Shown here one piece after another: positions 14,154 to 40,510 of a stretch of DNA of 64,000 nucleotides. Each line of letters begins with the position of its first letter. Positions within the stretch are counted from its first letter, which is position 1. The position numbers and the translations under genes are program-made. The DNA is from Escherichia phage 4E8: sequence record OQ689734.1, one strand, 5' to 3'. Below the pieces are notes generated by a model, which was not told where the DNA came from, did not search any database, and saw only the letters and a list, made by a program, of their open reading frames with translations.

Positions 14154-14164
14154 TAATGTATATA
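14154..14164 (+). promoter_or_regulatory. TAATGTATATA motif, candidate phage-sigma-dependent promoter element
   Basis: exact motif ~35 nt upstream of the 1481-aa gene start; same 11-mer recurs at 23855 (+) and 23782 (-), near-copies at 30561 (-) and 35382 (-). Confidence 0.4.
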
Positions 14165-23781: not shown

Positions 23782-23792
23782 TATATACATTA
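23782..23792 (-). promoter_or_regulatory. TAATGTATATA motif (minus strand)
   Basis: exact 11-mer read on minus strand in AT-rich ORF-free intergenic region. Confidence 0.35.
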
Positions 23793-23854: not shown

Positions 23855-23865
23855 TAATGTATATA
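23855..23865 (+). promoter_or_regulatory. TAATGTATATA motif (plus strand), divergent from the copy at 23782
   Basis: exact 11-mer; no + strand gene follows, so may drive an antisense or noncoding transcript. Confidence 0.3.
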
Positions 23866-29724: not shown

Positions 29725-30219
29725 TTAACTTGAGCTTAAAGCGTGTCTGATAGCTGTATGGCTTACACCAAACATTCTACCTAAAGCTCTTGTTCCAAAC
29801 TGAGCAGAACCTTTGACATAAAGATTTTTAACTCTTTTAACATCCTCTGTATTAAGTTTCATTCTAGGGTTTATGTTCCTGTGATGGCCTACATTAAGAC
29901 CTGTATCAAAAGAATGTTGAACATTCTCAGAAGCATCTGCCCACTCTAGATTCTCAATACGATTATCACTTTTTACACCATTCTTATGATTTATCTGAGG
30001 TTTGTTTTCAGGGTTAGGTATGAAAAAGGTTGCTATCAACCTATGAGCTTTCCATGACCTCCCTTCAAAATAAACCCTAATATAACCTTTAGTGTCTAAG
30101 TGGCCAGCCTCTTTACCCGGATGGCTCTTATTCCACTTAAGACCTTTTGAAGACGACTCTGTGTAAAACAGACGACCAGAATCTCTATCATAAGAGAGGT
30201 AGTCGGATATAGGAATCAC
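29725..30219 (-). CDS. HNH homing endonuclease
   Basis: GTG start; KAHRL...NP...INHKNG...DNRIENLEW HNH core plus C-terminal HTH-like LGRMFGVSHTAIRHA. Confidence 0.7.
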   Translation of the reverse strand: MIPISDYLSYDRDSGRLFYTESSSKGLKWNKSHPGKEAGHLDTKGYIRVYFEGRSWKAHRLIATFFIPNPENKPQINHKNGVKSDNRIENLEWADASENVQHSFDTGLNVGHHRNINPRMKLNTEDVKRVKNLYVKGSAQFGTRALGRMFGVSHTAIRHALSSS

Positions 30220-30530
30220 TGACTCAGCGCCCCCTTCCTTCCACCATTTGATTTTCCAGCACGATCTCCACTTTTGCCGCCGTTCGAGCGATTTCGAGAG
30301 ACTGATTCAACACGTAAGTTACTTGACGCATTAGAACCTCCCGACTTGATTGATCGTTTGTGTCCAACATCTTTACCTCGGACAGCAGCTTTTCCATCGC
30401 GCTTTTCAACGATGCGACGTGCACGGTGGCGCTGAGCATCTCCGCTCTTGCTACCAACACCTGTCTCACCCCTTGCGATTGCAGTTCTTCGTTCTTGTGC
30501 ATAATCACGTTTCGCCTTATCGGTCATCAT
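30216..30530 (-). CDS. basic Gly/Arg/Lys-rich hypothetical protein
   Basis: ATG with AAGGAG RBS; 4-nt overlap with HNH gene; a second full-length ORF (30224-30508) exists in another frame. Confidence 0.4.
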   Translation of the reverse strand: MMTDKAKRDYAQERRTAIARGETGVGSKSGDAQRHRARRIVEKRDGKAAVRGKDVGHKRSIKSGGSNASSNLRVESVSRNRSNGGKSGDRAGKSNGGRKGALSQ

Positions 30531-30560
30531 AACTCCTTAATATATCAGTGTACACTAAGG

Positions 30561-30571
30561 AGTATACATTA
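30561..30571 (-). promoter_or_regulatory. TAATGTATACT promoter-like motif (minus strand)
   Basis: ~30 nt upstream of the 30530 start. Confidence 0.3.
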
Positions 30572-30574
30572 TAT

Positions 30575-31312
30575 TTATGATTTTTCAGATTCCATTGCTT
30601 TAACAATAGCTTTACAGAAACCTGAACGAACAATATCATCCGATTCGCCATCTACTAGAGCGGCAAATTCAAATAACTGGTGACGGTAGATGAAATCAGT
30701 AGCCCAATCAAGACCGCTCTCACCACGCATGTCGTGCTGGTTAGTGTCCCCCATGCAGAACATCTGAGAGGTTTCACCAAGACGTGTCATGATTGAATAT
30801 GCTTCATCAGGAGTAGTGTTCTGGAACTCATCAACAATCACGATAGCATCGTTGAACGAGCGACCACGTAGATATTCCAGAGGTACGAACTCAATATTAC
30901 CATTACCTACTTGACATTCGTAGAAACCTTTACCGTAGCGCTGAGTAATAACATCAACGATTGGCATTAGGTATGGTTCAAACTTCTCACGAAGCCCACC
31001 GGGAAGTAATCCAAGACTATTACCCATACCAACAGCAGGTCGGCTTAGGATAATCTTCTCAATCTTCCCACTCTTCAGAGCATCAATCACTGTAGAAGTG
31101 ATTACGAAGGTCTTACCACAACCAGCAGGAGCATCTGTGAATACAACCTGTTTGGTTTTAATTGCATCAAGCAGCTCACTCTGGAATTGGTTCTGAGGTA
31201 CTACCGGCTTAGCAAGAACTACTTCTTCAAATTCCCGCTTTCCTTTCTTGGTGACGAGAGCTTCACGACGTAATTCTCTCCGTGATGCTTTCCGAGATTC
31301 TCTACGACTCAT
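30575..31312 (-). CDS. phoH: PhoH-like ATPase
   Basis: Walker A DAPAGCGKTF, Walker B IVDEFQN, PhoH motifs LPGGLREKFEPY and CMGDTNQHD. Confidence 0.85.
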   Translation of the reverse strand: MSRRESRKASRRELRREALVTKKGKREFEEVVLAKPVVPQNQFQSELLDAIKTKQVVFTDAPAGCGKTFVITSTVIDALKSGKIEKIILSRPAVGMGNSLGLLPGGLREKFEPYLMPIVDVITQRYGKGFYECQVGNGNIEFVPLEYLRGRSFNDAIVIVDEFQNTTPDEAYSIMTRLGETSQMFCMGDTNQHDMRGESGLDWATDFIYRHQLFEFAALVDGESDDIVRSGFCKAIVKAMESEKS

Positions 31313-31490
31313 TTCCTACCTCCGTGTTCTTCATATAAGAAGCTACAGGATTTACACTCTGAGCAATGGATACCTATAACCTTAATTTCGACAAACTTCT
31401 TATTCTTCCCTTTAGTCGGGGAGCCTTTGGCAAGCTCCCGTATTACTTTCGAGTCCAAATGGAGAAGAGTTGATTCACATTTAAAACATT

Positions 31491-31811
31491 TCAGATTGAT
31501 TTGTCCTTATGTAAACGGTATACTTCAGTAGCCATACAAGCTATACGCTCGTCATGTGGGAGATGCATACCAGTAGAGCCGTTCCATCCTTCGAACTCTG
31601 AATCAAAGAATCCAATAGGCTCGGGATACATCTCTTGCAAGGTGGTTAAGTCATCAGCCACTTGTTGCCACTTATCGTCAGACCAGATTGGGTCATCCAA
31701 CCAATAATACAAATAGGAGTGGATAAGCATCTGTGTTCTATGTCGTTTAATCACTTCAGCAGGACTAATCTCGTTTCCGTTACCAGTCCTAAATGTATTA
31801 TCATTGATCAT
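31491..31811 (-). CDS. hypothetical protein
   Basis: 106-aa ORF; SYLYYWLDDPIWSDDKW...EMYPE faintly resembles LigA Ia-domain signature (weak). Confidence 0.45.
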   Translation of the reverse strand: MINDNTFRTGNGNEISPAEVIKRHRTQMLIHSYLYYWLDDPIWSDDKWQQVADDLTTLQEMYPEPIGFFDSEFEGWNGSTGMHLPHDERIACMATEVYRLHKDKSI

Positions 31812-32021
31812 TTATTTAACCTCAACAATCCCAAGTTTCCAAACATATCCGGGAGCAGAGTCCTGTACGGCTCCATATTGAAGAACAGTATCACAAGCAT
31901 CACTATCTATACCATCAAGCATCAGCTGACCACGAGTAGGACGTTCTTTGTAATAGGTTACTTTGACTTCTGTGTCATGAGTCCGTTCACTAAAGCATAG
32001 ACTTAATTTGTAGATTCTCAT
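31812..32021 (-). CDS. hypothetical protein
   Basis: 69-aa ORF. Confidence 0.4.
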   Translation of the reverse strand: MRIYKLSLCFSERTHDTEVKVTYYKERPTRGQLMLDGIDSDACDTVLQYGAVQDSAPGYVWKLGIVEVK

Positions 32022-32497
32022 TCTAAAACCCTTTCCTCTAAATCATAAAAGATTTGATTTGTCCCATTGTTTTCAACAAGCACTGTCCCGTTATCTAACA
32101 GGGTAGTAACTTGTGAATAAGGAATGTTCTTTAACATCAGAGCATTGATGGTTGGCTTATTTTTGAAGTAAGCGACCGGCTCAACGTAGAAGGAAATCCC
32201 ACGACTTCCTTTGATTGGTGTGCTTGAAGACAGAACCCAAATCGTTTCTGGCTTGTCTACTTCCTTTTCAACACCAACCTCAACAAGCGAGTCAGCAGCG
32301 AAACCTACAGGACGACTAGAAGAGCCAAGCGCCCGAATAAATCCCGGTAATTTCGACATATTAGACCAACTACCAGTGTTTTCATTAAACACAGGTCTTA
32401 CATCACCATATGCCCAAACCAGATTATCACAGTCACGGGCTATGTATTTGGTCCAATCAGGAACATCATACTCTCTTCCTTCAAAAATAGCTTTCAT
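32018..32497 (-). CDS. hypothetical protein
   Basis: 159-aa ORF. Confidence 0.5.
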   Translation of the reverse strand: MKAIFEGREYDVPDWTKYIARDCDNLVWAYGDVRPVFNENTGSWSNMSKLPGFIRALGSSSRPVGFAADSLVEVGVEKEVDKPETIWVLSSSTPIKGSRGISFYVEPVAYFKNKPTINALMLKNIPYSQVTTLLDNGTVLVENNGTNQIFYDLEERVLE

Positions 32498-32692
32498 TTA
32501 GATAACCTTGTGCTTGTAGATGCTAGGGTTGAAGTAATGCAACCAGTTTATGTATTGTTTCTGTTCAAGGTAGTGTCTGCAATCATGACAAAAAGCATGA
32601 CCCAAACCTGTTTCCTCGTTCAGCTTGAAGTTGATAAGAAGCTTCTGCTTTTGACAGAAGCTACATGCTTTAGTGGGCTTCACGTAGTGCAT
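32498..32692 (-). CDS. small Cys/His-rich (zinc-binding?) protein
   Basis: CSFCQK...HAFCHDCRH; start moved from 32806 to internal Met to limit overlap with thyX. Confidence 0.35.
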   Translation of the reverse strand: MHYVKPTKACSFCQKQKLLINFKLNEETGLGHAFCHDCRHYLEQKQYINWLHYFNPSIYKHKVI

Positions 32693-33320
32693 CCCATGAG
32701 ATTGGGAAAAGTTTACGAAGCTCTTCATCAACAGTTGATGCGAACACTCGTACTTCATACTGAGCATGGTCGGACAGTCGCTGACGACATAACTCTGACC
32801 AGCCATATAAAGAACCTGTCCACACCCACTCAGTGATCATACCTTGAGGTAGAACGAATCGGGCTTGCTCTGGAGCAATAAACTTAATCAACTCATCATA
32901 TGACTCAAGAGCTGTTTCATATGCCCGATTAATCAGAACTAGTGCAGAGTTTTGCGCTCCTGTGGTGAGGAGATTCCCCGCACCTGCATGGAGGTCCGAA
33001 GGTCTTTCAAAAATCTCTTTAGGGATGAAGAGTTCAACTGCTCCATCTTTATACCGCCGGGACATTTCGTTCCACGAGAATCCAACTTGATGCTTGCCCA
33101 GCTGTCTCGCAATTGCGATTGGCGCTTTGCATCGGAAGCTAATTGTCGGATGGCGGAATGGTGTGACATGCTTTTCTCTGGCAAGGAACTTGATAAGGCG
33201 TTCATCTCGTTCATTTAACTCTCCTTCACGAGTAACCCCAAAGGAAACTCGAGCTGCATTAACAACAGATTTATCAGAACCCATTGCTTCAATTAGTGTT
33301 GCTTGTAATTGTTCGTTCAT
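32670..33320 (-). CDS. thyX: flavin-dependent thymidylate synthase (ThyX-like)
   Basis: FRHPTIS ... SWNEMSRRY resembles the ThyX RHR...S...SxRY signature. Confidence 0.65.
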   Translation of the reverse strand: MNEQLQATLIEAMGSDKSVVNAARVSFGVTREGELNERDERLIKFLAREKHVTPFRHPTISFRCKAPIAIARQLGKHQVGFSWNEMSRRYKDGAVELFIPKEIFERPSDLHAGAGNLLTTGAQNSALVLINRAYETALESYDELIKFIAPEQARFVLPQGMITEWVWTGSLYGWSELCRQRLSDHAQYEVRVFASTVDEELRKLFPISWDALREAH

Positions 33321-33334
33321 CCTTGAATTCTTCC

Positions 33335-33550
33335 TTAGTAATGAATCTTTTTATAAACCATGTTGCTTCCACTTTCTGTTTCAATCCCTTTCTGGATTGT
33401 AATCTTAGAAGCACCAGTGTTAACAATTTTTAAAGCTCGCTTAAAGCGGCGAGCCTCTTTCCGTGTGGAGTATGTTGAGAAGCTAGGGATTGTGCTATCA
33501 AAATTAAACCACTTAACTACCCAAAAAGTAATCCAAGGTTTCTTTTCCAT
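33335..33550 (-). CDS. small protein, RKEAR-family paralog 1
   Basis: STRKEARRFKR and C-terminal KKIHY shared with three paralogs at 35417-36038. Confidence 0.5.
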   Translation of the reverse strand: MEKKPWITFWVVKWFNFDSTIPSFSTYSTRKEARRFKRALKIVNTGASKITIQKGIETESGSNMVYKKIHY

Positions 33551-33551
33551 A

Positions 33552-33827
33552 TTAAATACCTTTCAGAGCCGTGTCTAAAAATGCACGGAGATTAGATTCA
33601 GTTTGCATACCTGATAAACTATAATGAGCACCACTATTCTTATCAGGTACGACAAAGGCTGGGATACTGCGAACACCATATTCAATGGCTCGCTCTCGAC
33701 CATCACCTTCAGAGATATTTACTTCTTCAACTTCTACACTGTAGTCAGCCACAACCTTCTTAAACACAGGAGCCATAGCTGCACATGGAGCACAGGAATT
33801 ACTATAAAACTTAATTACTTTACTCAT
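33552..33827 (-). CDS. thioredoxin-fold protein
   Basis: FYSNSCAPCAAMAPVF CxxC active site; ATG with AAGGAA RBS (track ORF begins at upstream TTG). Confidence 0.65.
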   Translation of the reverse strand: MSKVIKFYSNSCAPCAAMAPVFKKVVADYSVEVEEVNISEGDGRERAIEYGVRSIPAFVVPDKNSGAHYSLSGMQTESNLRAFLDTALKGI

Positions 33828-33828
33828 T

Positions 33829-34005
33829 CTATTCCTTGTTAATAAACAGATTGATATGACGCTGGGTAGCAGGAACAACAATAAAAGATTTATACTGACC
33901 TTTTGCTAAGTCATGAGCAATCTTCTTTGTCTGACCAAGACCCATCACACAGCCACTAACGATAATGGCATGTGCTTGTAATTCTTCAGGTAGGTTTAGT
34001 TTCAC
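33829..34005 (-). CDS. small hypothetical protein (58 aa, GTG start)
   Basis: sub-threshold ORF with AAGGAA RBS; fills gap between membrane-protein gene and thioredoxin. Confidence 0.3.
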   Translation of the reverse strand: MKLNLPEELQAHAIIVSGCVMGLGQTKKIAHDLAKGQYKSFIVVPATQRHINLFINKE

Positions 34006-34017
34006 TCTTTGGGTTCC

Positions 34018-34203
34018 TTATAGCATACAAAGAATAATAACAAGAGGTAGTGTTATAGCAAAATGTACCAGAACAACACTACCAAGCTTGATAGCTTTAA
34101 CATCCTCTTCTGCTGGGTTTTCTTTAATTGCTAAATTTCGAGCTTTATATATAACAGTACCAACTATTAATGACCACACGGCCCACACAATCAGTGAAAT
34201 CAT
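34018..34203 (-). CDS. small two-TM membrane protein, tandem paralog a
   Basis: IVWAVWSLIVG...KENP...IKLGS pattern shared with the next gene. Confidence 0.5.
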   Translation of the reverse strand: MISLIVWAVWSLIVGTVIYKARNLAIKENPAEEDVKAIKLGSVVLVHFAITLPLVIILCML

Positions 34204-34212
34204 ATCAAACCC

Positions 34213-34434
34213 TTATGCAGTCAACAGGTGGAGAAGGAAAGGAATGACAACAGAGAAAACTACCAGAGCAATGCTACCATGTTTAATAGGTTTAGCATCA
34301 TTCGGATTCTCTTTAAGCATCTGTTTCTGAGCCAGATAAACGATACCACCAACAAGAATTGCCCACACAGACCATACGATTGCTGAAAACATATTCATAT
34401 CCTTATAAAGAAGTTCGCCCCACCTCTTAAACAA
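34213..34434 (-). CDS. small two-TM membrane protein, tandem paralog b
   Basis: IVWSVWAILVG...KENP...IKHGS. Confidence 0.5.
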   Translation of the reverse strand: MFKRWGELLYKDMNMFSAIVWSVWAILVGGIVYLAQKQMLKENPNDAKPIKHGSIALVVFSVVIPFLLHLLTA

Positions 34435-34455
34435 AGAGACAGGGCGGAGGTTTGA

Positions 34456-35031
34456 TTAGTAAGACACATCACCACTGGAGTGGGACATGTTGCTCTTGAC
34501 GAAGTAACAGAACTTGCCAAGACCTTCATTGATTTCTTGAAGCATACTCTGATCAACTGGATAGGTGCACAAGTCTGAATCAAACTCGTCCATCTTCTCA
34601 ATGATACACATAAGAGTCATGCACATGTCGGAAAGCATGCCGTCCATGTCGAGATCAGCGTTACCTTCTCGGAACCAAGCATGACCTAAATAATTACTAG
34701 CAGTAGCATCCACTTTAACACAATGAAAGCGCATACGCTCTGCTATTCGGTCGCCTGCCTCACGAGCATAATCTTCTAGTTCATCGAACATACCATGAAC
34801 ACCTTGGAAACCAGCTCCAGAGACGTTCCAGTGGTAGTTCTTTGCTTTGATGTGTAGAAGTTCAAGATTAGCTTGCACACCACACAAGATGTGTTCTAAG
34901 CTGTTACCGCTAATCAGTTTATTCATTCCCTCAAGACGAGAGATAGAAGAGTCAGCAGTAGAGAATGGGTTGCTAGAACCCACTCGTGTTAGTTCTGGTA
35001 AGTCGAAGACATTATTATGCATTAGGTGCAT
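34456..35031 (-). CDS. Dps/ferritin-like protein
   Basis: LHIKAKNYHWNVSGAGFQGVHGMFDE...DRIAERM matches the Dps ferroxidase-centre helix pattern. Confidence 0.6.
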   Translation of the reverse strand: MHLMHNNVFDLPELTRVGSSNPFSTADSSISRLEGMNKLISGNSLEHILCGVQANLELLHIKAKNYHWNVSGAGFQGVHGMFDELEDYAREAGDRIAERMRFHCVKVDATASNYLGHAWFREGNADLDMDGMLSDMCMTLMCIIEKMDEFDSDLCTYPVDQSMLQEINEGLGKFCYFVKSNMSHSSGDVSY

Positions 35032-35344
35032 CCCCTTCTAAGTTAGTTGAATTAGCTACATTACGAGCAATGTTATCCATGACCTGTTGTGTGATAACAA
35101 TGCAATTCTGAGGGTCTACTGATTTAGAACGCCCCATTTCAGGGTCATAGACTTTGACTCGCTTGGCTGTTGAGCCAGTAACTTGCAACACTTTGAGAAG
35201 ATAACCTTGATTTCCAATAGACCATGCAACAACATCACGATTCTTGATATAACGACCAAGCATATCACGATGATAGAACTGCTGCATAACTTTAGCTTTG
35301 CTAATCTCTTCGGCTGGCGGAGCCACTTTACTCAAATCTAACAT
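35015..35344 (-). CDS. hypothetical protein
   Basis: 109-aa ORF. Confidence 0.5.
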   Translation of the reverse strand: MLDLSKVAPPAEEISKAKVMQQFYHRDMLGRYIKNRDVVAWSIGNQGYLLKVLQVTGSTAKRVKVYDPEMGRSKSVDPQNCIVITQQVMDNIARNVANSTNLEGDAPNA

Positions 35345-35381
35345 TTCACTCTCTCCTGTTCAATACAATATTCTTATACTG

Positions 35382-35392
35382 TATATACATTT
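35382..35392 (-). promoter_or_regulatory. AAATGTATATA promoter-like motif (minus strand)
   Basis: one mismatch from TAATGTATATA; ~38 nt upstream of the 35344 start. Confidence 0.3.
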
Positions 35393-35416
35393 GAGAGTGA
35401 TCATATCTACTACCAA

Positions 35417-35626
35417 TCAGTAGTAAATTACTTTAGACATAAAAGAACCAGTGTTAGGGTCTTCATACCAGCGATGTATGTCAGCGCTTTTTACTATTGT
35501 GCCCAGAATCTTCAACTGTTTCTTAGCAATACGAGCCTCTTTGCGAGTGTCAAACAATTTGATGCTATCTTTTCTCGTGTGTTGATCAAGATCCCAAACA
35601 ACACGAATCGCCCACATCTTTTTCAT
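35417..35626 (-). CDS. small protein, RKEAR-family paralog 2
   Basis: DTRKEARIAKK ... SKVIYY. Confidence 0.5.
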   Translation of the reverse strand: MKKMWAIRVVWDLDQHTRKDSIKLFDTRKEARIAKKQLKILGTIVKSADIHRWYEDPNTGSFMSKVIYY

Positions 35627-35841
35627 TAGTAGTGCACCTTTCCGCTGATATAAATACGGCCTGAGGTATACTCATAGCCCTTGAGAATCTTAACAGAGGT
35701 AGTGGAGCCATCGTTTAGTGCACAGATTGACTTCTTAAGATTGCGTGCATCTTCTCGTGTCTTCTGGTAGGTCATGGTCACACCCCCACTCTTCCACTCT
35801 GTTTTAACTAACCAAACTATTTTCATAAGACCTGCTCTCAT
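35626..35841 (-). CDS. small protein, RKEAR-family paralog 3
   Basis: KTREDARNLKK ... SGKVHY; start/stop overlap with neighbours. Confidence 0.5.
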   Translation of the reverse strand: MRAGLMKIVWLVKTEWKSGGVTMTYQKTREDARNLKKSICALNDGSTTSVKILKGYEYTSGRIYISGKVHY

Positions 35842-36038
35842 TAGTAGTACACCTTGCTTCCAGCCATGAACGCCCCTGTCGAGCTTATCATGGCTTTGCT
35901 GATAGTAACTTTCTTACACCGTAAACATACCTTCCAATTCTTTTTACAGATTCGAGCTTCTTGTCGAGTGTTACAAAAAATAGCCGAAGATATTTCTTGA
36001 GTGTTGTTGTCATAAACACGAACACACCACTTTTTCAT
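35841..36038 (-). CDS. small protein, RKEAR-family paralog 4
   Basis: NTRQEARICKK ... GSKVYY. Confidence 0.5.
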   Translation of the reverse strand: MKKWCVRVYDNNTQEISSAIFCNTRQEARICKKNWKVCLRCKKVTISKAMISSTGAFMAGSKVYY

Positions 36039-36241
36039 TTTACTAAACCCTTCATGTAATCGTAGAGGTTGTTAGAAGCTTTGCCCCATTCGACATGCTT
36101 CTTATCCATGTAATCCTTAAAGATTTCTCTATTATTTTCGACACACGTATCATACTGCTGACACGCTCTGCCAAATGTCATAGCTGTTAACTGAACCTCA
36201 GTAGTTAAACCTTTAAGTTCTTGAAACTCTTCTTCAGTCAT
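36035..36241 (-). CDS. hypothetical protein
   Basis: 68-aa ORF. Confidence 0.45.
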   Translation of the reverse strand: MTEEEFQELKGLTTEVQLTAMTFGRACQQYDTCVENNREIFKDYMDKKHVEWGKASNNLYDYMKGLVK

Positions 36242-36775
36242 TTAGACACCCTTAGAAGCAACTACACCCTCGCTACCATTATAGCGACCCTTAACTGCAT
36301 AGGAATGTTCACCGGCATGTGAATGCTCAAACATTACCATCTGACCGACACGCATACCAGCACGAACACGTAAGCTGTGGTGCTTGGTTACGTTGTGGAA
36401 TTCGAACGTCAGCTTGCTATTATTAAACCCAGCGTCTGCCCACCCGGCGTGAAGGTGGTTCAAGCCACAACGAGCCATTGAGGAGCGGAGTACAAACAGA
36501 CTTGAGAGGTTATCTGGAAGGTTAAATTCTTCCATTGAGTGAGCTAAGAAGAACTGTCCCGGAGTGATGACAATACCATCTTCAGGGATTTTCACCTCTT
36601 TCCACTTGAGGTTTTCTTTAGCATCAATATCAACAATGCCGTCAGCCTGTTCTTCAACAAGGATAGTATCACCAATACGGATATCCACACTAGCAGCGTT
36701 AACATATTTATGCTCCGCATCTAAAAAGCCATTATCAATAACGCTGTGTAATTCTTGAGAACCTAAAAGACTCAT
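36242..36775 (-). CDS. dcd: dCTP deaminase (dUTPase-fold)
   Basis: SSMARCGL, AGWADAGFNNSKLTFEF, GMRVGQMVMF match the dCTP deaminase core. Confidence 0.8.
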   Translation of the reverse strand: MSLLGSQELHSVIDNGFLDAEHKYVNAASVDIRIGDTILVEEQADGIVDIDAKENLKWKEVKIPEDGIVITPGQFFLAHSMEEFNLPDNLSSLFVLRSSMARCGLNHLHAGWADAGFNNSKLTFEFHNVTKHHSLRVRAGMRVGQMVMFEHSHAGEHSYAVKGRYNGSEGVVASKGV

Positions 36776-38190
36776 GAGTTTCTGTTTCCTTGTACAGATG
36801 ATGCCAAATTGTTAATCATGTTACGAGCTGTTTCACGAGACAGTGTAACACCTGCTAAGTTACTATCAAGTTCACCAACCATTTCACGAGCAGCAGATCG
36901 TAGTTCTGCACCAAGTGCAGTATTAGAGTGAGCCAAACCATTACGACGACTATAAGGGCGAGGGGCTTCGTTAGCGTCATTAGCTAAAGATGCAAAGCCA
37001 GTACGAGCAGCTTCACGAGCCGCTATCGCTGCTACTTGATCTTCCATATGGGTTGGCACATCACCAACTTCTACACGTTCTATATCACTAGCACGTAGAC
37101 CCTGAACAACAGAGCTTACTGTTTCCCATGAACGACGAGAACGCTGTAAATCTCCCATTGACGGAGAAGAAGCAGGACGAATAGTTACCCCACCTGTGTC
37201 ATGAGTTACATGCCATGTATGGTTGTGGGTGTCCGTCCCAGAAGATCGTGCACTACCAAAACTGCCAGTGAAAGTGTCACGTCTGTTAGTTCCTGGAGTC
37301 CAAGGTTGTGTGATTGCTTCAGCACCGATAGTAACTAACCCACTAGACCATTCTGTCTGTAGGTTAACTTCTTCATCCAGATAAATATGACCTACTTCCG
37401 GAGGAATATTTAATGCAACCTCCATCATCTTCAAGGTATAATGACGACGTTGATTCTGATACAAGTTTACACCAGCCATAGGTCCAACTAGATCACTGAT
37501 AAGATGAACTTCTGGCTCACCAAAAGCACCCATCGCAAGGTGCATGTATTCAGTAGAACTGCTATAAACTGCAACAGTTGCTTCAGGCCACTTTTTGTGA
37601 ACATATTTCATTTCACGACTTGATACTACAGGAATGTCACGAGTATACGACATTGCAAACAAACCTTCATCTGACACATACATGTCATCAAGAGTCATGA
37701 AACCCTGACAGATCATAGGGAAGCGACCACATAGAGTGTTCATATCCAGAGGAAGGTTAATCATCATCTGAATCTTCACTTCATCAATCTCAATTTCCAG
37801 AATCTCTTGGAAAATGAAAAGTGCATCAGCGTAAGTTGCTCCGGTGATAGGCTGAGCTAAGCGAGATGTAACTTGAAGCCCCTTACTCTCTGTCCAAGAC
37901 AAGAAGTTGTCAAGGAACAGTGCAGCATTACTTACGTTAGCAGGGCTGTTTTCCTGACGAGTGTTCCAACGTAATCCTCCTTGAACTAGGAAGATATCAA
38001 CATCATTCGGAGTTCGGTTTTGGAAGAACGTATCACGAATAGCACCACCTGCAATAACAGGGTAGATACCATCAGGAACTACGTTGTCTCTGATCAGATT
38101 GCGAATCAGATCAAGCCCTACGCTGAGGGCTTCTCCTTCTTGAAGGTTTAATTCAGACAATGGAATCTTAATCATTTCTACATTTTCCAA
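36772..38190 (-). CDS. pol-beta-superfamily nucleotidyltransferase (CCA-adding / poly(A)-polymerase-like head), 472 aa
   Basis: [10 protein letters not shown]-x9-NDVDIF matches the GGAVRD...DxD head motif; remainder without recognisable motifs. Confidence 0.55.
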
Positions 38191-38726
38191 TTTAGAGATG
38201 GGGGATTCTTATAATCAAATCCAGCCATTTGACAAAGACACATGTAAACTTTAACTGTCAAGTTAACGTCTTGCTCACAATAGGTGAACATGTCTTCAGT
38301 GAATGCGTCCCATGCCTCCTCCTGTTCTCCATAATCTCCTTTCAGCTCCCCAAGAAACTCGCCCCATTGTCTGAGGCCGTGACCACGAGGGCCATGTCTA
38401 GGGTCGCCTTTGGGGTATTCTGGACTATCACCAATACGGTCAGGCTTGAGATATCTACTCAGGCACAAAGTATCGAAGACGTTAAAGCGAAAAGGTATCA
38501 CATGAGAATAAAACTTAAACAAAGCAGGAAGGTCAAAATCAATAATATTGTGACCTATTACTACATCAGCCTCTTTCAGTTTGTGTAGTGCTTCTTCAAT
38601 TTGGTGAGGGCGATACCCCCACCGCTCTCCAGATAATACATCAAATATCCAGATACACCAGACATTCTGAATACCATCATAGAGATTATCCCCCTCAATA
38701 TCAAACGCATACAGTTTCTTTACCAC
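38178..38726 (-). CDS. 3'-5' proofreading exonuclease (DEDDy), stand-alone
   Basis: Exo I FDIEGD, Exo [10 protein letters not shown], Exo III YCEQDV. Confidence 0.8.
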
Positions 38727-40510
38727 GGACGTGCCTCCCCTTCTTGTGCAAGTAAGGAAGCTGCATCCTCTCCATTGGTAACGGTAAAAGGATGCTCTTC
38801 ATCAACTTCATGATCTTCTCGTTCTACAAGACGACCTGTTTCATTGATGTATTTGGTATAGCAAACCCCTGTCTGTCCATAGTTACGCTCTTTGAGCAGT
38901 CGTATGATTGACAAGTTTTTACCTAACCCATCCGCTTGTTTGTTACGTTCAAAACCAATAATACACTGACACCAGCGCATCAATGAACGTGAACCAGTAA
39001 ACTGTACTTCTTTAACCTGACCACCTTCTTCGTGAGGTGCACCACCTGCCGGAGCGTTCAAGTGAGATAATACAAAAGCAGTGAAGTCTAATTCCTTACA
39101 CATACCAGCAAGCTCTGAAGCAATCTTGCTGATTTCTGTGTTTACCTCAGATGGGGTTAAGTGAGATACCAATGCAGTGATGTTATCAAGAATGATAAAT
39201 TTACACTGATTCTCAACTACCCAAAAGCGAATACACTGCTTAATGTCTTCCCACTCGTTCTGCCCAAAATTGTCATACAAGAAAAACTTATCAGCGTATC
39301 GAAGTGCTTCATCTCGTAGCTGGCTTTCTTCGTACTCAACATCTGGTCGGTGGAATGGAATAGATGCAGATTTACCTGCAATGTTCTTAACAGACATGCC
39401 TACCTTCTCTTCCAAGAAGAAGCCACCACCATTAAAACCATGCTCAAGGCAAAGCCATGCTACTAGTTCGTGTGCGATTAAGGTTTTACCTGAACCAACA
39501 CCACCGCCGATTGCAACCATCTCTCCCCAACGAATACCAAAGGTCATGTCGTTAAGAGTTTTCCACGGATAAGGAATACCCCATTCCGCTTTCTTCAGAG
39601 CATCTTCGAGGCAATCAAAAACTGTAACAGCGCCGGCAGGAGATTCCCGCTTAGCTGAATATTTCAGATTGTTGAAAAGCTCTTGACCTCTCCCTGCAAG
39701 TAACATGTCGTTTGCATCTTTGATTTCCTTTTCTTGTCCGTTATAAGTGAACGTACCTTTTGGAATCCTTGCAAACTTAACATGCGGGTACAGAGAACGA
39801 CCCTTAGTTAAAGCAATCTCACCTGCATCATCATTGTCCATGCAGAGTACAATCTCCTCGAAACCATTAATAAAATCACGGTTTCTTGATAATACAGAAG
39901 AGATTGAACCTGCACCGAACGGAAGAGAGACGCAAGCAGGTTTGATGTTAGTTGCGTTTGTAAACGCGGTAAGTACGTGGAACCCAGACATACAAGAGAG
40001 AGGATCTTCAAAGATGAAGAGTTTCTTGTTGTATACGTCACCACGTTGTGCTTGAGCCATACCAAACAAGTCGGCTTCTTTCACATTACCTACATAATAG
40101 AACTTCTTGCTGTCTAGAAGTTTTACTTCATATCCAACAATGTTCCCATCACGTTCACGAGGGAAGAAGTAGCTGTCAGGAGTTTGACCATCTGTTTGGC
40201 TTAAACCGATACGGCATCCATAACGTTCAGATACAGCTTTAGGAATTAAGCGACGAGTCAACTCTCCCTGAGGAAGCTCTAAGCAATCGTCTAAGACTTC
40301 TCGGAGTTCTTCAGGGGACAGCTCTTTCTTTTCATTAGGAGTGGGCGTCGTTCCTTTCTCGAAGATTTCATACGCACCACATCTGTTACATGAACCCCAC
40401 TCCTCACCGGACTCTTCATTTCGGAAGAGAATCATGTGATTGCGGGTCTTATCACGACCATGAGAGATACACTCTTTACAGCCTGTGTCTCCCAAAATGA
40501 TCTTTGACAT
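38720..40510 (-). CDS. DNA primase-helicase (T7 gp4-like)
   Basis: N-terminal Zn ribbon CKEC...CNRC, TOPRIM acidic motifs (CMDNDDAGE), helicase Walker [10 protein letters not shown]. Confidence 0.9.

What the first reader, a model, noticed from the sequence alone, without database searches (positions are those of the whole stretch)
34456..35031. Dps/ferritin-like protein encoded by a virulent phage
The 191-aa ORF carries LHIKAKNYHWNVSGAGFQGVHGMFDE and DRIAERM, the pattern of the Dps ferroxidase-centre helices. Dps-like genes are uncommon in phages. It sits beside thioredoxin and ThyX genes, which suggests a redox/iron-handling accessory module, for example protecting replicating DNA from oxidative damage or sequestering iron.
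Basis: partly seen in the sequence, partly recalled or inferred. Interest (0 to 1): 0.5.

Follow-up and report, generated by a model that had tools for sequence, protein, structure and literature searches.

The report
Phage Dps mini-ferritin gene, already annotated
This gene of a phiEco32-like E. coli phage encodes a genuine Dps-type iron-detoxifying mini-ferritin with an intact iron-oxidation site, but its orthologue has been annotated as a Dps family member since 2008, so the finding is correct and not new.

Summary
The ORF is real (minus strand, 34456-35031; the true start is probably Met4 at 35022, giving 188 aa) and contains the quoted motifs. It is a full-length Dps family protein. Pfam Ferritin scores above its cut-off. 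A profile of 31 phage homologues hits only Dps structures (best 4e-27). The AlphaFold model superposes on Dps crystal structures at 1.2 A. The ferroxidase ligands (His67, His79, Asp83, Asp94, Glu98) and the adjacent Trp68 align with E. coli Dps H51/H63/D67/D78/E82 and W52; all are invariant in the phage clade except Asp83 (30 of 31). The window is a phiEco32-like podophage (Suseptimavirus). The orthologue phiEco32 gp67 is annotated 'member of the Dps family', and SU10 and Privateer papers discuss it, so the finding is already known. New details: the protein is acidic (charge about -14) and lacks a basic tail, so the database label 'DNA-binding protein' is doubtful. The Kuravirus-like forms carry a conserved non-basic N-terminal extension and four clade-specific cysteines. 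The gene is co-transcribed with a conserved small partner ORF from a dual middle promoter and ends at a conserved hairpin. Linkage to thioredoxin, ThyX and dCTP deaminase persists in distant relatives. Function is untested; detoxification of Fe2+ and H2O2 during phage replication is most likely. Virion association (Privateer) is unresolved.

The parts
34456..35022 (-). Dps-family mini-ferritin gene (188 aa from Met4; the maximal ORF runs to 35031, 191 aa); orthologue of phiEco32 gp67 / SU10 gp67
34738..34833 (-). Helix A/B segment carrying the inter-subunit ferroxidase-centre codons: His67 (34831-34833), Trp68 (34828-34830), His79 (34795-34797), Asp83 (34783-34785), Asp94 (34750-34752), Glu98 (34738-34740)
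   Evidence: Codons read directly; alignment to E. coli Dps H51/W52/H63/D67/D78/E82; conservation in 31 homologues (all invariant except Asp83, 30/31)
34897..35022 (-). Clade-specific, non-basic N-terminal extension (residues 4-45) with conserved motifs MHNN[VP]FDLP and S[ILM]xR[LM][ED]xM; low-confidence in the model apart from a helix at 29-41
   Evidence: pN/pS 0.35 here against 0.08 in the core
34416..34446 (-). Conserved 13-bp hairpin immediately after the stop codon (terminator-like or RNA-stabilising; weak U-tract)
   Evidence: stem conserved, loop differs in phiEco32; dG -18.6 kcal/mol, z -2.6
35015..35344 (-). Companion ORF (109 aa, PHROG 10984, SU10 CDS68 homologue). It overlaps the Dps start and lies directly upstream of Dps in the Escherichia, Proteus and Aeromonas phages. 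Predicted small SH3/Tudor-like beta-barrel, function unknown
35382..35427 (-). Middle promoter region: sigma70-like TTTACT-16-TATGAT (35427-35400) followed by AAATGTATATA (35392-35382), which matches the phiEco32 gp36-sigma motif tAATGTATAtA; 38 nt upstream of the companion ORF
   Evidence: published promoter location upstream of SU10 CDS68 in PMC4281155
33552..33881 (-). Phage thioredoxin (probable start Met19 at 33827, 91 aa), linked to the Dps gene in all C3-morphotype relatives examined except Aeromonas LAh_8, where no match was found in the stretch fetched
32670..33320 (-). Flavin-dependent thymidylate synthase ThyX
36242..36775 (-). dCTP deaminase, upstream member of the same nucleotide-metabolism cluster

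Best explanation
The gene encodes a catalytically competent Dps-family mini-ferritin, the orthologue of phiEco32/SU10 gp67. It is made as a middle-phase protein together with the phage's dNTP-synthesis and replication enzymes. It is the second cistron of a short unit (dual sigma70/phage-sigma promoter, gene-68 homologue, Dps, hairpin). By analogy with characterised Dps proteins, it is inferred to assemble into a 12-subunit cage. The ferroxidase centres sit between subunits (His67/His79/Asp83 from one protomer, Asp94/Glu98 from its partner). They would oxidise Fe2+ preferentially with H2O2 and deposit Fe3+ inside the cage, removing both Fenton reagents while phage DNA is being replicated. The phage probably needs its own copy because it redirects host sigma70 transcription, so the host's inducible dps/OxyR response would not be available. 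Because the protein is strongly acidic and lacks the basic tail that mediates DNA binding in E. coli-type Dps, it probably acts like the non-DNA-binding Dpr/Dlp type rather than as a DNA-coating protein. Shown here: family membership, fold, ligand conservation, purifying selection, operon context. Shown by others: expression as protein. Inferred: dodecamer, ferroxidase activity, physiological role.
For: Family and fold: Pfam Ferritin above its cut-off; profile against PDB gives only Dps, best Dlp-2 at 4e-27 over the full length; AF2 model pLDDT 83 with a four-helix bundle plus BC helix; the Foldseek PDB top 50 are all Dps or Dps-like proteins, rmsd 1.2 A over about 134 residues. Active site: the ligands align with E. 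coli H51/W52/H63/D67/D78/E82 and have the same 12/15/4 spacing as Listeria H31/H43/D58/E62; all are invariant in 31 phage homologues except Asp83, 30 of 31 (ligand definition from PMC7762939). Selection: pN/pS 0.15 overall and 0.08 in the core, against phiEco32. Expression: SU10 gp67 detected by MS with 35.8% coverage and classed as a middle gene (PMC4281155). Context: conserved promoter and hairpin; linkage with thioredoxin, ThyX, dCTP deaminase or anaerobic RNR in distant relatives. No basic tail: pI 4.9, net charge about -14, extension with 3 K+R against 4 D+E; DNA binding in Dps is attributed to positively charged tails, and Dpr homologues lack it (PMC7762939). Rationale: lytic infection induces host dps, catalase and peroxiredoxin in another system (PMC7354516); phiEco32-type phages encode an inhibitor of the sigma70 holoenzyme (PMC4281155).
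Against: No biochemical or genetic test of any phage Dps was found in the searchable literature. Oligomeric state could not be tested with the tools available. NCBIfam Dps equivalog models score far below their cut-offs (34.6 against 114 bits), so it is not an orthologue of any curated cellular Dps subfamily and could have diverged in function. The conserved N-terminal extension and four clade-specific cysteines are not explained by a plain ferroxidase role. Detection in CsCl-purified Privateer virions hints at a role outside the replication compartment.
Confidence: 0.6

Rival explanations
1. It is, as most database records say, a DNA-binding protein. It would coat or condense phage or host DNA, for example shielding replicating or incoming phage DNA from nucleases or oxidants, or compacting the host nucleoid, with ferroxidase activity secondary.
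For: Annotation as 'DNA-binding protein' in phiEco32 and many relatives, and in PHROG 3636. Canonical Dps proteins bind DNA non-specifically (PMC7762939). The short forms in the Salmonella, Proteus and Cronobacter relatives keep a short basic N-tail, e.g. MLTARPKRNV with +3 and no acidic residue.
Against: In this clade the tail is replaced by a 40-residue neutral or acidic extension. The whole protein has pI 4.9 and charge about -14, and the C-terminal tail SNMSHSSGDVSY is not basic. The annotation is by homology only; no binding experiment was found.
Confidence: 0.15
2. It is a genuine virion-associated (capsid-internal) protein of the prolate C3 podophages. It would be packaged with the genome to protect it from iron-driven damage, or be delivered into the next host with the DNA.
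For: The Privateer Dps homologue was one of ten proteins detected in virions purified by CsCl step plus equilibrium gradients (PMC7881722). Dps-fold domains occur inside viral proteins annotated 'Prohead protease'. A metagenomic protein with two tandem Dps domains sits next to a gene whose end resembles actinophage capsid maturation proteases, so targeting Dps to capsids may exist elsewhere.
Against: The SU10 detection came from a PEG-precipitated lysate that also contained DNA polymerase, sigma factor and early proteins. The SU10 cryo-EM and gel-MS study lists gp20-24 as the ejection proteins and does not mention gp67. The gene lies in the middle/replication cluster, not the late structural cluster, in every relative examined. 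From my own knowledge, an iron-loaded 12-mer is dense and could co-band with phage in CsCl. The 'Prohead protease' names are uncurated.
Confidence: 0.12
3. It is mainly an iron store or iron donor. It would buffer iron for iron-dependent enzymes needed for dNTP synthesis (host class I or III ribonucleotide reductases, Fe-S activases), rather than defend against peroxide.
For: In Aeromonas phage LAh_8 the gene sits between anaerobic RNR subunits and an ATP-cone regulator. In Proteus phage J3S it is followed by a small ORF annotated as anaerobic RNR. It is always embedded in nucleotide-metabolism genes.
Against: No RNR gene is annotated within about 4 kb of the Dps gene in phiEco32 or Bas87, and none was seen among the ORFs of window 30000-40000. 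Dps cages hold little iron and prefer H2O2 as oxidant (PMC7762939). Iron release to client enzymes is not an established Dps function (my own knowledge).
Confidence: 0.1
4. The Dps scaffold has been repurposed: the conserved N-terminal extension and cysteines mediate binding to the gene-68 product, thioredoxin or a host factor, and metal chemistry is incidental.
For: The extension carries two motifs conserved down to 50% identity and is under purifying selection. There are four clade-specific cysteines. The gene forms a conserved, translationally overlapping pair with the gene-68 homologue.
Against: Near-complete conservation of the ferroxidase ligands in both long and short forms is hard to explain without metal chemistry. 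No interaction data exist. The partner's model is of modest confidence (pLDDT 66) and has no significant structural match.
Confidence: 0.03

Closest known systems
phiEco32 gp67 (ABY52868.1) / SU10 gp67 (A0A0B4N267) and orthologues in all Gordonclarkvirinae
   Same: Orthologue: 84% identity to phiEco32 gp67 and 99.5% to SU7, Bas86 and Bas87. Same position between the gene-68 homologue and the thioredoxin/ThyX genes, and the same N-terminal extension. Already annotated 'DNA-binding protein, member of the Dps family'.
   Different: Nothing of substance. This window's copy has three extra in-frame codons upstream of the conserved start, which are probably not translated.
Short Dps forms of Grimontviridae-type C3 podophages (Salmonella SE131 and 7-11, Proteus Privateer and J3S, Cronobacter GAP52) and Aeromonas Lahexavirus
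   Same: 33-43% identical over the four-helix core, the same ligands, and the same linkage to thioredoxin, dCTP deaminase, ThyX or the gene-68 homologue.
   Different: 144-169 aa, with a short basic N-tail instead of the 40-residue non-basic extension, and lacking the four conserved cysteines. The Privateer protein was reported in purified virions.
Cellular Dps of the non-DNA-binding kind (Bacillus anthracis Dlp-1/Dlp-2 as the best sequence and structure matches; streptococcal Dpr as the stated example)
   Same: Best profile and structure matches (1jig 4e-27, rmsd 1.2 A). Full-length four-helix bundle with BC helix, identical ferroxidase ligands, no basic tail.
   Different: Only about 25% identical. 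The phage clade is small and isolated (12 representatives at E below 1e-10 among 1.84 billion) and has its own N-terminal extension and cysteines.
E. coli Dps (the host's own protein, b0812)
   Same: Same family, same ligands and spacing, and alignable to the C-terminus.
   Different: 18% global identity, so it is not a recent capture from the host. E. coli Dps has a Lys-rich N-tail (pI 10, +2.5) that binds DNA, no cysteines and net charge -4, whereas the phage protein has an acidic extension, 6 Cys and charge -14. NCBIfam Dps equivalog: 34.6 bits against a cut-off of 114.
Other phage-borne Dps genes (Streptomyces BE-type phages, Lactobacillus plantarum myophages, Clostridium tetani phages, Synechococcus S-SRM01, gut 'Gratiaviridae')
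   Same: Independent examples of phages carrying Dps; proposed by others to help hosts tolerate oxidative stress.
   Different: At most 30% identity, different genome contexts, and some are temperate. None was found to be characterised experimentally.

Membership tests
Dps (mini-ferritin) family, Pfam PF00210 Ferritin-like | Significant profile similarity over the whole domain | tested here: met
   Pfam 32.9 bits against GA 24.5 (single sequence, helices A-B only). Family profile against PDB: 71 matches at E up to 1e-3; the 60 listed are Dps family proteins or Dps-scaffold chimeras, best 4e-27 covering profile positions 27-164. PHROG 3636 at 1e-52, full length.
Dps (mini-ferritin) family | Four-helix bundle with a short BC helix at the two-fold axis | tested here: met
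   AF2 model: helices 45-69, 76-102, 111-116 (BC), 129-149, 158-180, with pLDDT above 90 for most of the core. Foldseek PDB top 50 are all Dps or Dps-like proteins, TM (target-normalised) up to 0.88, rmsd 1.2 A.
Dps (mini-ferritin) family | Inter-subunit ferroxidase centre: His-x12-His(-x3-Asp) on helix A/B of one protomer and Asp-x3-Glu on helix B of the partner, with an adjacent Trp | tested here: met
   H67, W68, H79, D83, D94 and E98 align with E. coli H51/W52/H63/D67/D78/E82. Same spacing as Listeria H31/H43/D58/E62 (PMC7762939). Conserved in 31/31 homologues, D83 in 30/31.
Dps (mini-ferritin) family | Assembly into a hollow dodecamer with 23 symmetry | not testable with these tools
   Only monomer prediction was available. 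Conservation of both halves of an inter-subunit site implies at least the two-fold dimer (inference).
Dps (mini-ferritin) family | Fe2+ oxidation (H2O2 preferred) and iron mineralisation | not testable with these tools
   Needs biochemistry. No published assay of a phage Dps was found.
DNA-binding subset of Dps (E. coli type) | Flexible N- or C-terminal tail rich in Lys/Arg | tested here: not met
   The N-terminal 45 residues have 3 K+R against 4 D+E and pI 6.0; the C-tail SNMSHSSGDVSY has no basic residue; whole protein pI 4.9. E. coli tail: pI 10.
NCBIfam Dps equivalogs (NF006975 Dps, NF041388 DpsA Halo, NF052461 DpsA Cyan) | Score above the curated equivalog cut-off | tested here: not met
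   34.6 against 114, 31.1 against 170 and 17.4 against 300 bits. It is a Dps family member but not an orthologue of these curated cellular subfamilies.
Tyrosine/serine integrase (label carried by many GenBank records for this gene) | Any similarity to integrase families | tested here: not met
   Pfam, NCBIfam and PHROG show only Ferritin/Dps. The label sits on the orthologous CDS in MZ234017.

The most novel reading that the evidence does not exclude
The Dps of the prolate C3-morphotype podophages is a true capsid-internal cargo, in effect a mini-ferritin packaged inside an HK97-fold shell, analogous to ferritin-like cargo in encapsulins. It would protect the densely packed genome from iron-catalysed damage, or enter the next host with the DNA. 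The clade-specific N-terminal extension or the conserved gene-68 partner would serve as the targeting device. Viral proteins in which Dps domains are fused to, or encoded next to, prohead protease or scaffold-like proteins would be the same principle in fused form.
Probability: 0.1. Interest if true: 0.65.

Novelty: already known. Interest (0 to 1): 0.22.

Why it matters
As it stands, this is a correct re-discovery of an annotated gene, so it changes little. Its modest value lies in three points. First, the widespread database labels ('DNA-binding protein', and in many records 'integrase') are respectively doubtful and wrong for this clade. Second, a Dps with an intact ferroxidase site is a conserved, purifying-selected gene of a whole group of therapeutic-candidate lytic coliphages, yet no one appears to have tested what it does. 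Third, the reported presence in purified virions of a relative, together with Dps domains in head-morphogenesis proteins of uncultured phages, leaves open a more interesting role that simple experiments could settle.

Tried and rejected
1. An internal promoter for the Dps gene: TAATGTA at 35057-35063(-), inside the 3' end of the upstream ORF, looked like the phage-sigma motif. The 7-mer is at chance frequency in the window (17 found against 11 expected) and the site lacks the rest of the consensus. The real match (AATGTATATA, 4 exact copies in the window) is upstream of the gene-68 homologue.
2. Anti-defence or defence role: no PADLOC hit for the Dps or its partner.
3. Function of the partner ORF: 23 close homologues only and no Pfam hit. 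The AF2 model has pLDDT 66. Foldseek gives only generic SH3/Tudor/KOW-like barrels at E above 4e-3. No functional conclusion.
4. Spectral counts for the Privateer Dps: not in the held supplements. The phiEco32 2008 paper is not held.
5. Literature on experimentally characterised phage Dps: six searches, nothing found.
6. Neighbours of the tandem-Dps metagenomic protein P0122: no significant Pfam or PHROG match (one weak PHROG hit, E=0.0015) and no PDB match. Only a 45-residue terminal match to actinophage maturation proteases, which is suggestive and no more.
7. Recent capture from the host: rejected, 18% identity to E. coli Dps.

Full report
OBSERVATION. The ORF exists on the minus strand at 34456..35031 (191 aa from the first ATG) and contains both quoted motifs: residues 58-83 LHIKAKNYHWNVSGAGFQGVHGMFDE and 94-100 DRIAERM. 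The first ATG directly abuts the Shine-Dalgarno-like GAAGGGG, whereas the second ATG (Met4, 35022) lies 9 nt after it. Met4 is the invariant start in a 31-sequence alignment, and orthologues are annotated from it. The gene is therefore most likely 34456..35022, 188 aa.

WHAT THE WINDOW IS. A 12-kb stretch around the gene is 96-97% identical to Escherichia phages of the genus Suseptimavirus (Gordonclarkvirinae, the phiEco32-like prolate podophages). At protein level the ORF is 99.5% identical to SU7, Bas86, Bas87 and HC-25922, and 84% identical to phiEco32. In phiEco32 the orthologue is gp67 (ABY52868.1), annotated 'DNA-binding protein; member of the Dps family'. The SU10 paper lists CDS67 ('contains a DPS domain') among the few middle genes shared by all five C3-morphotype phages then known, together with thioredoxin (CDS65) and CDS68, and detected it by mass spectrometry (PMC4281155). 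The Privateer paper also notes the Dps homologue and its presence in the Kuravirus phages (PMC7881722). The basic identification is therefore already in the databases and the literature.

IS IT REALLY A DPS? Yes, by every test available.
- The single sequence passes Pfam's Ferritin gathering score (32.9 against 24.5 bits), though only over helices A-B. It hits PDB Dps chains at 8e-10.
- A profile of 31 phage homologues hits Dps family proteins (or chimeras built on a Dps scaffold) in all 60 PDB matches listed. The best is B. anthracis Dlp-2 at 4e-27, over essentially the whole domain.
- The AlphaFold2 model (mean pLDDT 83, core mostly above 90) is a four-helix bundle with the short BC helix typical of Dps.
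- All top-50 Foldseek matches in the PDB are Dps or Dps-like proteins, with rmsd 1.2 A over about 134 residues.
- In a full-length alignment with the host's own Dps (taken from MG1655), His67, Trp68, His79, Asp83, Asp94 and Glu98 align with E. coli His51, Trp52, His63, Asp67, Asp78 and Glu82.
- The 12/15/4 spacing is the same as Listeria His31/His43/Asp58/Glu62, the residues that define the inter-subunit ferroxidase centre (PMC7762939).
- These positions are conserved in 31 of 31 phage homologues; Asp83 is conserved in 30 of 31.
- The gene is under purifying selection: pN/pS is 0.15 against phiEco32, and 0.08 in the core (synonymous sites are near saturation, so this is a rough figure).
- It is not an orthologue of curated cellular Dps subfamilies, because the NCBIfam equivalogs score far below their cut-offs. 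It is only 18% identical to E. coli Dps, so it was not recently captured from the host.
- An exhaustive search of 1.84 billion cluster representatives finds 544 relatives at E of 1e-3 or better, but only 12 below 1e-10. This is a small, isolated, phage-associated branch.

WHAT IS DIFFERENT ABOUT THIS CLADE.
- The protein is strongly acidic: pI 4.9 and net charge about -14, against -4 for E. coli Dps.
- Canonical DNA binding by Dps is attributed to a positively charged terminal tail, and Dpr-type homologues without it do not bind DNA (PMC7762939).
- Here the N-terminal 45 residues have 3 basic and 4 acidic residues, and the C-terminal tail has no basic residue. The common label 'DNA-binding protein' rests on homology only and is doubtful for this clade.
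- The extension is not junk. It carries two motifs, MHNN[VP]FDLP and S[ILM]xR[LM][ED]xM, conserved down to about 50% identity. Its pN/pS is 0.35.
- The long forms also share four cysteines: C50, C137, C142 and C175, each present in 15-19 of 21 long forms. These are essentially absent from the short forms and from E. coli Dps.
- The short forms in the Salmonella, Proteus and Cronobacter relatives have a short basic tail instead.
- I could not test whether the cysteines cluster, so they remain unexplained. The adjacent phage thioredoxin makes a redox switch a tempting but untested idea.

GENOMIC CONTEXT.
- Downstream lie two paralogous small membrane ORFs and one small ORF. Thioredoxin follows at 33552..33881 and ThyX at 32670..33320. 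Upstream lie three small paralogous ORFs, dCTP deaminase (36242..36775), a nucleotidyltransferase, the exonuclease subunit and the primase/helicase.
- 'Beside' is therefore approximate (0.6 and 1.1 kb), but the linkage is real and old.
- In Salmonella phage SE131 the order is dCTP deaminase, PhoH, thioredoxin, gene-68 homologue, three small ORFs, ThyX, Dps, with ThyX and Dps abutting.
- In Proteus phage J3S the order is dCTP deaminase, thioredoxin, gene-68 homologue, Dps.
- In Aeromonas phage LAh_8 the gene-68 homologue and Dps sit among anaerobic RNR genes, with ThyX about 2.5 kb away.
- The ORF immediately upstream (35015..35344, PHROG 10984) overlaps the Dps start and is its conserved companion. 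Its predicted structure is a small SH3/Tudor-like barrel of modest confidence with no significant match, so its role is unknown.
- Thirty-eight nucleotides upstream of that ORF lies a conserved region with a sigma70-like TTTACT-16-TATGAT followed by AAATGTATATA.
- The 10-mer AATGTATATA occurs exactly only four times in the 64-kb window. It matches the published motif tAATGTATAtA of phiEco32 gp36-dependent promoters. The SU10 paper places a middle promoter 'upstream of CDS68' (PMC4281155).
- Directly after the Dps stop codon is a 13-bp hairpin (dG -18.6 kcal/mol, z -2.6). Its stem is conserved and its loop differs in phiEco32.
- The gene-68 homologue and Dps thus look like the promoter-proximal bicistronic head of the middle transcription unit.

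MECHANISM. Shown here: the protein has the Dps fold and a complete, conserved ferroxidase site, is under purifying selection, and sits in a conserved middle-gene unit with nucleotide-metabolism genes. Shown by others: the SU10 orthologue is translated during infection. Inferred from the family (PMC7762939): twelve subunits form a 9-nm cage, Fe2+ enters, is oxidised at the inter-subunit sites preferentially by H2O2, and is stored as ferric mineral, removing both Fenton reagents.

The likely benefit is protection of replicating phage DNA and of the dNTP-synthesis machinery at a time when the host cannot respond. Two observations fit this. Lytic infection strongly induces host dps, catalase and peroxiredoxin in another system (PMC7354516). 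phiEco32-type phages carry an inhibitor of the sigma70 holoenzyme (PMC4281155), which would block such induction. The link between these two points is my inference. From my own knowledge, ThyX has an NADPH-oxidase side reaction that generates H2O2, which would give a local reason for the linkage; this was not tested. I put about 0.6 on this explanation.

RIVALS.
- A DNA-coating role (about 0.15) is what the annotations imply, but it conflicts with the acidic, tail-less sequence.
- An iron-supply role for RNR-type enzymes (about 0.1) fits the Aeromonas and Proteus contexts. It fits this phage group less well, because no RNR gene is annotated near the Dps gene in phiEco32 or Bas87.
- A packaged-virion role (about 0.1) rests mainly on Privateer, where the Dps homologue was among ten proteins found in virions purified by CsCl step and equilibrium gradients.
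- The SU10 detection does not support packaging, because that sample was a PEG precipitate that also contained polymerase, sigma factor and early proteins. The SU10 cryo-EM study names gp20-24 as the internal ejection proteins and does not mention gp67.
- The gene is never in the structural cluster. From my own knowledge, an iron-loaded cage is dense enough that co-banding in CsCl is a plausible artefact.
- The viral structure library did return Dps-fold domains inside proteins named 'Prohead protease'. A metagenomic protein with two tandem Dps domains and a long charged tail lies next to a gene whose end resembles actinophage capsid maturation proteases. Capsid-targeted Dps may therefore exist somewhere among phages. 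This keeps the packaged-cargo reading alive at low probability.

HOW COMMON.
- tblastn with this protein finds 146 of 50,697 phage records: 97 at 80% identity or more, all phiEco32-like, and 49 below 60% identity in other lineages (Grimontviridae-type, Lahexavirus, Streptomyces, Synechococcus). The surrounding 12 kb matches 98 records.
- E. coli Dps as query adds about 95 Streptomyces, 16 Lactobacillus and 6 Clostridium phage records.
- Others have reported Dps in Gratiaviridae and 36 further gut phages (PMC8008677).
- Dps is rare across phages (roughly 0.3-0.5% of records) but is a fixed gene in several lineages, including this one.

VERDICT. What remains open is the function, which nobody appears to have tested, and the meaning of the clade-specific extension, the cysteines and the partner gene. 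Interest is low to modest.

Noticed in passing
window 34456-35022 (-); e.g. MZ234017.1 QZI79200.1 (L007 610-1176): Many GenBank records of phiEco32-like phages label this Dps gene 'integrase' (UKE3, IME267, MLP3, E20-1, ES17 and others). Pfam, NCBIfam and PHROG see only Ferritin/Dps, so the label is an error that could wrongly flag these lytic, therapy-candidate phages as temperate.
   Followed up: yes
window 33335-33550, 35417-35626, 35626-35841, 35841-36038 (all -): Four paralogous 65-71 aa ORFs of PHROG 4939 (unknown function; shared TR-EAR--KK motif and C-terminal -YY/-HY). Three are in tandem just upstream of the gene-68/Dps unit and one lies between thioredoxin and ThyX.
   Followed up: partly
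window 34018-34203 and 34213-34434 (-): A tandem pair of small hydrophobic ORFs, both PHROG 9296 (unknown function), directly downstream of the Dps hairpin. phiEco32 has one ORF annotated at this position (gp66); the family of that ORF was not checked.
   Followed up: no
window 14155-14164 (+), 23782-23791 (-), 23856-23865 (+), 35382-35391 (-): The 10-mer AATGTATATA, the core of the published phiEco32 gp36-sigma promoter motif, occurs exactly four times in the window. These are candidate phage-sigma promoters. Two of them face each other about 70 bp apart near 23.8 kb.
   Followed up: partly
window 29725-30219 (-): An HNH endonuclease ORF that the closest relatives do not match by megablast (their alignment to the window starts at about 30250). 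Bas87 instead carries an HNH endonuclease between thioredoxin and ThyX. This suggests mobile homing endonucleases at variable sites in this gene cluster.
   Followed up: partly
BFVD A0A6J7XDU5, A0A6J7WPK9, A0A6J7WIS1; P0122 in L008 615-2948: Dps-fold domains occur inside multi-domain viral proteins annotated 'Prohead protease'. The metagenomic protein P0122 has two tandem Dps domains plus a long charged tail, and the next gene ends in a segment 55-65% identical to actinophage capsid maturation proteases. This is possibly capsid-targeted Dps in uncultured phages.
   Followed up: partly
window 31491-31811 (-): A 106-aa ORF matching PHROG 6466 'DNA ligase' (phiEco32 gp62, annotated NAD-dependent DNA ligase). 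It is far too short to be a complete ligase, so its real function is unclear.
   Followed up: no
window 36772-38190 (-): A 472-aa 'nucleotidyltransferase' (PHROG 12715) with no Pfam match and a long Ser/Gly/Thr/Arg-rich C-terminal half. It is annotated only as a hypothetical protein in phiEco32 (gp73).
   Followed up: no
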